35,158 nucleotides of DNA from Octopus sinensis (Eukaryota): NCBI RefSeq assembly GCF_006345805.1, contig NW_021831957.1:1-35158 (forward strand), given 5' to 3'. Below the pieces are notes generated by a model. It was not told the origin of the DNA. It saw nothing but the letters and a program-made list of their open reading frames with translations, and did no database searches. Positions 4,187 to 4,449 of the stretch are shown piece by piece; positions within the stretch are counted from its first letter, which is position 1; the number at the start of each line of letters is the position of its first letter. Made by a program: the position numbers and the translations under genes.

Positions 4187-4449
4187 TACAGAGATGTACT
4201 CGCATAGCGAGTGATTTGATCTGAGATCGTGTGCTGAAACGAAAACAATTGCAGCGTGGAAGGTGTGTGTAAGCCATTTAAGAAACACACAAAAGCCGTT
4301 CGATTCACTGCAACATTTAAGTTTAATTTGTCAAAATATTTCCGTCGCTAAAATCCGCGACCTGTTCACTGACAAAATGTTGAAGTGAATCGAACGGCTT
4401 TTGTGTGTTTCTTAAATGGCTTACAAACACCTTCCACGCTGCAATTGTT
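4187..4449 (-). mobile_element. Foldback PLE-like module with ~75-bp inverted arms (4243-4319 / 4375-4449)
   Basis: 'aacaattgcagcgtggaagg..caacattt' and its reverse complement enclose a hammerhead-like motif; TA repeats on both sides. Confidence 0.7.
4327..4376 (-). ncRNA. Hammerhead-like motif, G3-C8 core variant
   Basis: Minus strand TTTGTCA-GTGAACA-G-GTCGC-GGATTTTA-GCGAC-GGAAATATTT-TGACAAA: 7-bp stem I, 5-bp stem II; GAAA side imperfect in this copy. Confidence 0.6.

What the first reader, a model, noticed from the sequence alone, without database searches (positions are those of the whole stretch)
4327..4376. Candidate natural G3-C8 hammerhead in the loop of a 75-bp foldback
Seen: GUGAACA sits exactly at the core position between a 7-bp stem I (TTTGTCA/TGACAAA) and a 5-bp stem II (GTCGC/GCGAC). 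The 3' side reads GGAAATATTT: either a G.G mismatch plus GAAA, or GAAA-ATAT-UU with A13G in this copy. Established: the C3G/G8C swap is mainly known as a laboratory rescue and is uncommon in nature. Inference: the family consensus may be an active swapped-core ribozyme.
Basis: partly seen in the sequence, partly recalled or inferred. Interest (0 to 1): 0.7.

Follow-up and report, generated by a model that had tools for sequence, protein, structure and literature searches.

The report
Swapped-core hammerhead in a retroelement family
A common animal repeat, probably the tail of a Penelope-like jumping gene, carries a small self-cutting-RNA motif with two paired core letters swapped throughout the family, a change so far seen mainly as a lab rescue, but cutting has not been shown and this copy is probably broken.

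Summary
The motif is real, on the minus strand: stem I 7 bp, core GUGAACA, one extra G, stem II 5 bp, GGAA, AUAU, UU. It belongs to a high-copy repeat: 3,225-6,272 contigs per run were laid in four runs under four organism labels.

At 4342, 99.1-99.8% of depth reads GAAA, so A13G is private to this copy. No other letter reaches 3% in the core or stems. The 75-bp foldback is not a family feature; it is an inverted, truncated second copy, as Penelope-like elements (PLEs) often leave.

The extra base, G10.1-C11.1 pair, palindromic helix III and (TA)n setting match PLE minimal hammerheads. No PLE reading frame could be linked.

G3-C8 was in 0 of 56 published PLE representatives and 0 of 78 phage candidates folded completely. 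Eight literature searches showed no natural case, but three key papers were unreadable. The scan noted G3-C8 before on other DNA (two PLE tails, one phage; unchecked).

Verdict: new core variant of a known ribozyme. Activity inferred, not shown; this copy is probably dead.

The parts
4327..4376 (-). Minimal type I hammerhead motif with G3-C8 core, extra G after A9, palindromic helix III; predicted cut between 4334 and 4333
   Evidence: family letters
4363..4369 (-). Core GUGAACA (G3 at 4369, C8 at 4364)
   Evidence: no other letter at 3% or more in 4 of 4 runs, and present in the loose-end consensus of X2, X5, X9
4362..4362 (-). Extra nucleotide (G) between A9 and G10.1
   Evidence: a conserved trait of PLE minimal hammerheads (PMC4209133)
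4342..4342 (-). A13G, private to this copy
   Evidence: 99.1, 99.6, 99.7, 99.8% of depth read the A13 letter in X1, X2, X5, X9
4349..4356 (-). Loop II, differs from the family and varies among copies
   Evidence: loose ends behind 4349 and joints landing at 4355-4360
4335..4340 (-). Palindrome AAUAUU: helix III half-site for a dimer
   Evidence: sequence; 6-bp self-duplex -1.6 kcal/mol, monomer lone pair costs 5.4 kcal/mol
4185..4377 (-). Copy 1 of the repeat: 5'-truncated just before stem I, hammerhead, about 140 nt of 3' sequence, ending near a (TA)n run
   Evidence: depth profile and loose ends at 4183-4191 and 4377
4375..4449 (+). Copy 2: inverted, 5'-truncated second copy without the hammerhead, ending at (AT)n; forms the right foldback arm
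   Evidence: junction nearly absent from family contigs
4244..4318 (+). Left foldback arm (part of copy 1); its two mismatches, 4267 and 4310, are private changes
   Evidence: about 96% or more of depth reads the other letter at both places
4185..4243 (-). One-sided 3' extension of about 60 nt, present in copy 1 only
   Evidence: compare the one-sided 30-40 bp tail of PLEs (PMC8557442)

Best explanation
This is a relic 3' end (pseudo-LTR part) of a high-copy Penelope-like retroelement family whose minimal type I hammerhead has the core pair reversed to G3-C8 in all sampled copies. SHOWN: the motif, its family-wide letters, the copy-specific A13G and foldback. INFERRED: in family RNA, two motifs pair their AAUAUU palindromes into a 6-bp helix III, G3 pairs with C8 as C3 does with G8, and the RNA is cut slowly after U17, perhaps with protein help, to trim tandem element transcripts. 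INFERRED: this locus arose in one insertion that left two 5'-truncated copies head to head between (TA)n runs, and then decayed; A13G probably killed this copy.
For: Family GAAA and invariant core in 4 of 4 runs. 0 of 42 non-loop motif positions versus 14 of 132 tail positions polymorphic at 3% or more, one-sided Fisher p=0.018; loop II varies. Extra base after A9, G10.1-C11.1, palindromic 15.2-16.2 and U/AU-rich flanks are the listed traits of PLE minimal hammerheads (PMC4209133). Inverted 5'-truncated copy, one-sided tail and (TA)n bias are PLE traits (PMC8557442). C3G/G8C partly restores cleavage in an Anolis PLE hammerhead while single changes abolish it (PMC11167929). Both arms share the same letters at the subfamily-variable places 4269, 4295, 4301, fitting one template. 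Five more hammerhead-like relics lie within 1.5 kb.
Against: No cleavage data. No RT or GIY-YIG match in 140 of 158 longer window frames, and no family copy linked to an ORF. No C3-G8 sister was found, so the swap is inferred from the class consensus, is one inherited event, and is not covariation seen in an alignment. Depth over the core is only 9-14% of the 4228-4235 bin, and contigs with other cores may have been clipped or dropped at 80% likeness; the Fisher test shares that bias and treats linked sites as independent. Competing pairings score better than the active register: A14-U17 extension of the dimer helix (-3.4 versus -1.6) and G3.U17 on stem I (-14.6 versus -13.3). Even canonical PLE hammerheads cut poorly, and cleavage was not needed for insertion in vitro.
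Confidence: 0.6

Rival explanations
1. Same PLE origin, but the family motif no longer cuts. The swap arose while catalysis was dispensable, and the fold persists as a protein-binding or priming structure, or simply because all copies come from a few recent masters.
For: Hammerhead mutants did not reduce insertion in vitro, and no RNA ends were found at the cut site in Anolis (PMC11167929). Naiad PLEs spread without canonical hammerheads (PMC8557442). Any route from C3-G8 to G3-C8 passes a mispaired step (inference). Unfavourable alternative pairings. Phage hammerheads with a GG/CC-type stem II avoid this swap: 0 of 78.
Against: The family keeps every other core letter and a Watson-Crick 3-8 pair. 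Two random hits among 13 conserved letters would land on 3 and 8 and still pair about once in 230 (arithmetic, not a tool result). The motif is less variable than the tail.
Confidence: 0.28
2. The hammerhead is real, but the carrier is a short non-autonomous element (SINE- or retrozyme-like) of about 200 nt mobilised by a PLE, not the truncated end of a full PLE.
For: Family agreement fades within about 12 letters 5' of stem I (loose ends behind 4377, agreement 0.57-0.58). One joint (4377 to 4245, one contig in X2) suggests a tandem-like junction. A preprint derives animal retrozymes from PLE pseudo-LTRs (10.64898/2026.07.22.740005).
Against: Helix sizes and the extra base fit PLE minimal hammerheads, not the 6-bp/4-bp canonical retrozyme type. 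No tandem array here. Contigs break in repeats, so the fade may be heavy 5' truncation.
Confidence: 0.1
3. The foldback is the functional unit (MITE or microRNA-like hairpin) and the hammerhead likeness is chance.
For: A 75-bp near-perfect hairpin; best Rfam match MIR6140 at 76.5 bits.
Against: That score is far below the 140-bit gathering cut. The junction is nearly absent from family contigs. 1 motif hit in 200 shuffled windows. The family restores GAAA as predicted in advance.
Confidence: 0.02

Closest known systems
Minimal type I hammerheads of metazoan Penelope-like elements (min-HHR; Cervera and De la Pena 2014, PMC4209133)
   Same: Extra base after A9, G10.1-C11.1, tiny palindromic helix III needing a dimer, U-rich and AU-rich flanks, mostly solitary truncated copies. 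U17 occurs in 24 of 56 listed representatives (my count).
   Different: Core pair is G3-C8. Of 56 listed representatives 53 have C3, 3 have U3, none G3. Stem I is 7 bp (4-5 usual). The extra base is G, outside the stated consensus H, though G occurs in the Nasonia row.
Natural U3-A8 hammerheads (Perreault 2011, PMC3088659; Schistosoma Cercyon elements, PMC4209133)
   Same: Natural replacement of the 3-8 core pair by another Watson-Crick pair.
   Different: U3-A8 keeps pyrimidine-purine order and can be reached through a U.G wobble. G3-C8 reverses the order by two transversions.
Engineered C3G/G8C rescue of the Anolis Poseidon (PAc) hammerhead (PMC11167929)
   Same: Same swap in the same kind of ribozyme; partly active there.
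   Different: Laboratory mutant; here the swap is the family's natural state and activity is untested.
PLE insertions with an inverted 5'-truncated copy and one-sided tail (Craig 2021, PMC8557442)
   Same: Head-to-head truncated copies, one-sided 3' extension, (TA)n surroundings.
   Different: Extension about 60 nt rather than 30-40; clade unknown. Short motifs of this family had 0 hits in that paper's supplement text.

Membership tests
Hammerhead ribozyme, type I | Literal core C3 U4 G5 A6 N7 G8 A9 | tested here: not met
   G3 and C8 in this copy and the family
Hammerhead ribozyme, type I | Watson-Crick pair possible between 3 and 8; U4 G5 A6 A9 kept | tested here: met
Hammerhead ribozyme, type I | G12 A13 A14 A15.1 in the family | tested here: met
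   99.1-99.8% of depth at 4342 in four runs
Hammerhead ribozyme, type I | G12 A13 A14 A15.1 in this copy | tested here: not met
   A13G at 4342
Hammerhead ribozyme, type I | U16.1 H17 closed by stem I; stem II with G10.1-C11.1 | tested here: met
Hammerhead ribozyme, type I | Match to an Rfam hammerhead model | tested here: not met
   no hammerhead row at 4327-4376 up to E=5; the canonical relic at 2918 was missed too, so the test is insensitive for minimal forms
Hammerhead ribozyme, type I | Site-specific self-cleavage | not testable with these tools
   needs an assay; contigs show no RNA ends
PLE minimal hammerhead | Unpaired base between 9 and 10.1 | tested here: met
   G4362, no other letter at 3%
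PLE minimal hammerhead | Palindromic 15.2-16.2 and loop 3 | tested here: met
   AUAU
Penelope-like element | RT plus GIY-YIG frame next to the pseudo-LTR | tested here: inconclusive
   none in 140 of 158 window frames; no genome held; copies are 5'-truncated
Penelope-like element | Inverted 5'-truncated copy, one-sided tail, (TA)n target | tested here: met
   against PMC8557442
Penelope-like element | Dispersed high-copy repeat | tested here: met
   6,272, 5,182, 5,118 and 3,225 contigs laid; these are not copy numbers
Non-LTR retrozyme | Tandem units each with a hammerhead | tested here: inconclusive
   single motif in the window; one tandem-like joint in one contig
MITE or microRNA hairpin | Inverted repeat shared by the family | tested here: not met
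   depth past 4379 falls 200-fold or more in all four runs

The most novel reading that the evidence does not exclude
The G3-C8 core is an active, selected ribozyme fixed in a PLE family that spread to high copy in several related animals. It would be the first characterised natural reversed-core hammerhead, evidence that PLEs are selected for the catalytic 3-8 pair rather than its letters, and the visible member of a class that CUGANGA-based searches cannot see, including in PLE families now scored as hammerhead-less.
Probability: 0.3. Interest if true: 0.7.

Novelty: new variant of a known kind. Interest (0 to 1): 0.5.

Why it matters
The 3-8 pair positions the general acid of the hammerhead (2'-OH of residue 8; PMC6155905). 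Natural replacements reported in the papers I could read are U3-A8 only. A whole retroelement family with G3-C8 gives a ready test of two open points: whether the reversed pair is good enough in a living system, and whether PLE hammerheads are kept for catalysis at all, which is stated as unclear (PMC8557442; PMC11167929). Published searches fix the core as CUGANGA, so such motifs would be missed by design.

Tried and rejected
Own genome: none held, so no direct copy alignment. Family pattern in viral contigs: 0 matches. Pattern with free 3 and 8 in metagenome contigs: 5 of 5 matches are unrelated sequences (46-68% GC) without stem I or flank likeness; no C3-G8 sister found. Pfam on 140 of 158 frames of 55 aa or more: no match above any curated cut-off. 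Earlier findings by sequence and by place: none. 'G.G mismatch at 10.1-11.1' reading: rejected. Foldback as family trait, MITE or microRNA: rejected. Idea that U17 covaries with G3 to avoid a G3-C17 trap (suggested by PMC3884650): compatible but not diagnostic, since 24 of 56 PLE representatives have U17. Kinship with the neighbouring U3-A8 or C3-G8 elements: alignment scores reached by 102 and 204 of 500 shuffles, rejected. Identity with published Naiad or Hydra consensus sequences: short motifs 0 hits in that supplement (line breaks could hide a hit). Supplement of PMC13282606 holds no repeat library. Not readable: Lunse et al. (PMC5785218), Przybilski and Hammann 2007 (PMC1986816), PMC3334697; supplementary file 1 of PMC4209133 was not searched.

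Full report
Setting. The window is AT-rich animal-type DNA full of microsatellites and short repeats. No frame matched Pfam above a curated cut-off in 140 of 158 longer frames scanned. No whole genome is held. From recall the repeats resemble those of octopus genomes; no call confirms this.

Observation. On the minus strand, 4376-4327 reads as a 7-bp stem I, core GUGAACA, one G, a 5-bp stem II with an 8-nt loop, GGAA, AUAU, UU and the closing strand of stem I. Both stems form in the predicted fold (-14.7 kcal/mol, z -3.6). A descriptor with these stem lengths and any Watson-Crick 3-8 pair gave 1 hit in the window and 1 in total in 200 shuffled windows; its thresholds were chosen after seeing the motif. 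Rfam gave no hammerhead match here up to E=5, and also missed a canonical relic at 2918. The foldback arms are 4244-4318 and 4375-4449, 75 bp with two mismatches.

Family test. Twenty of 24 listed runs hold part of the stretch, from 12 studies. I laid four of them, one for each organism label A-D, on 4180-4392 at 80% likeness. 6,272, 5,182, 5,118 and 3,225 contigs were laid, so this is a high-copy repeat; depths are not copy numbers, and X1 may be the window's own source. At 4342, 99.1%, 99.6%, 99.7% and 99.8% of depth read the letter that gives GAAA. No other letter reached 3% at any place from 4343 to 4376. Loop II differs: contigs break off after 4349, and their loose-end consensus in X2, X5 and X9 (21, 18, 20 contigs; agreement 0.75-0.79) carries another loop followed by the same stem II and the same core. 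Polymorphic places number 0 of 42 in the non-loop motif and 14 of 132 in the tail (p=0.018; three private changes were left out of the count).

Limits of that test. Depth over the core bin is 9-14% of the 4228-4235 bin. Copies with another core may have been clipped or fallen under 80%, 725 loose-end rows were not shown, and figures are depth-weighted. All copies descend from few masters, so the swap counts as one event. No C3-G8 sister was seen here or in a metagenome scan with free 3 and 8, whose 5 matches were unrelated.

The foldback. Depth falls from 141,270 to 672 (X1), 97,980 to 45 (X2), 39,418 to 17 (X5) and 14,852 to 37 (X9) just past 4379. The family continues with other letters there. 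So the right arm is an inverted, truncated second copy joined at this locus over about 3 shared bases. Both arm mismatches are private changes of the left copy, and both arms agree at the subfamily-variable places, which fits one insertion followed by decay. Only the left copy has a further 60 nt or so before the (TA)n run. An inverted 5'-truncated copy, a one-sided tail and (TA)n targets are described for PLE insertions (PMC8557442, passages). One contig each in X2 and X9 shows another strand switch at 4377, a weak hint that inversion recurs at this point.

What it is like. Cervera and De la Pena (PMC4209133; main text parts 1-2 of 4, supplement file 2 parts 1-2 of 3) define PLE minimal hammerheads by an extra base between 9 and 10.1, G10.1-C11.1 and a palindromic helix III that needs a dimer. 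All are met. Their 56 listed representatives have C3 (53) or U3 (3), none G3; 24 have U17 (my counts). They report low activity even for canonical cores. Perreault 2011 (PMC3088659, passages) reports natural U3-A8 and no other 3-8 pair in the passages seen. In the Anolis PLE hammerhead, C3G and G8C each abolish cleavage and the double change partly restores it; cleavage needed the protein and was not needed for insertion in vitro (PMC11167929, passages).

How rare is the swap. With stem II fixed to GUCC/GGAC and 3 and 8 free, 122 of 129 distinct viral-contig matches were C3-G8, and the one G3-C8 match had no full fold (10 of 64 parts scanned). A whole-collection scan for G3-C8 with a GG/CC-type stem II gave 78 distinct matches, 29 with a paired stem II, 0 with a full type I or III fold, against 103 of 121 for C3-G8 under the same test (type II not tested). 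This covers one stem type only and does not test the scan's earlier phage note. Eight paper searches listed no report of a natural G3-C8 hammerhead. Passages of PMC3884650, PMC6765202, PMC6155905, PMC10085705, PMC2837043 and PMC13282606, and part 1 of 5 of preprint 10.64898/2026.07.22.740005, showed none. Lunse et al., Przybilski and Hammann 2007 and PMC3334697 were not held, and I saw nothing of them but titles of the first two in reference lists; the first could hold such rows. The scan's own notes list G3-C8 motifs in two other PLE tails and one phage, unchecked here.

Mechanism. Shown: anatomy, family letters, locus history markers. Inferred: two family motifs pair AAUAUU into a 6-bp helix III (-1.6 kcal/mol; a monomer lone pair costs 5.4), G3 pairs with C8, and the RNA is cut after U17, between 4334 and 4333. 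Against: an A14-U17 extension (-3.4) and a G3.U17 wobble on stem I (-14.6 versus -13.3) compete, and the unconstrained two-strand fold pairs stems I and II between strands rather than helix III. By eye, five family letters 5' of stem I could pair with 4315-4311 to close a loop 1; untested. A13 is a conserved core letter, and from recall its change strongly lowers cleavage, so this copy is probably inactive. I put 0.6 on a PLE-borne, weakly active swapped core, 0.28 on an inactive but retained motif, 0.1 on a short non-autonomous carrier.

Verdict. A real, family-wide G3-C8 variant of the PLE minimal hammerhead: new variant of a known kind, interest 0.5. It fails the literal core consensus, so it is filed as hammerhead-like until cleavage is shown.

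Noticed in passing
window 3770-3906 and 3963-4100: A head-to-head inverted repeat with a U3-A8 hammerhead-like motif in each arm (cores at 3856 minus and 4026 plus), CCGG palindrome, A17 and a one-sided extension; Rfam HH9 at E=1.7. A second non-canonical core family right beside the G3-C8 one.
   Followed up: partly
window 2870-2945 (minus): Canonical C3-G8 PLE-type minimal hammerhead with extra A and CG palindrome, followed by about 110 nt and (AT)n.
   Followed up: partly
window 3270-3345 (minus) and 5213-5275 (plus): Two degenerate hammerhead-like relics; the second has a 6-nt palindrome in helix III and a palindromic stem I.
   Followed up: no
window 4349-4356 versus 4026-4050: The family's loop II consensus shares a 9-letter word with stem and loop II of the neighbouring U3-A8 motif; the two elements do not align above shuffles overall. 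Unexplained, possibly chance.
   Followed up: partly
window 11949-12068: Another short foldback, sub-threshold match to a plant microRNA model.
   Followed up: no
window 17294-17797: Tandem array of 63-nt units, open in several frames, GC-rich for this window.
   Followed up: no
window 7129, 12341, 27418, 33792, 34420: A dispersed SINE-like repeat, copies 86-88% alike over 166 nt.
   Followed up: no
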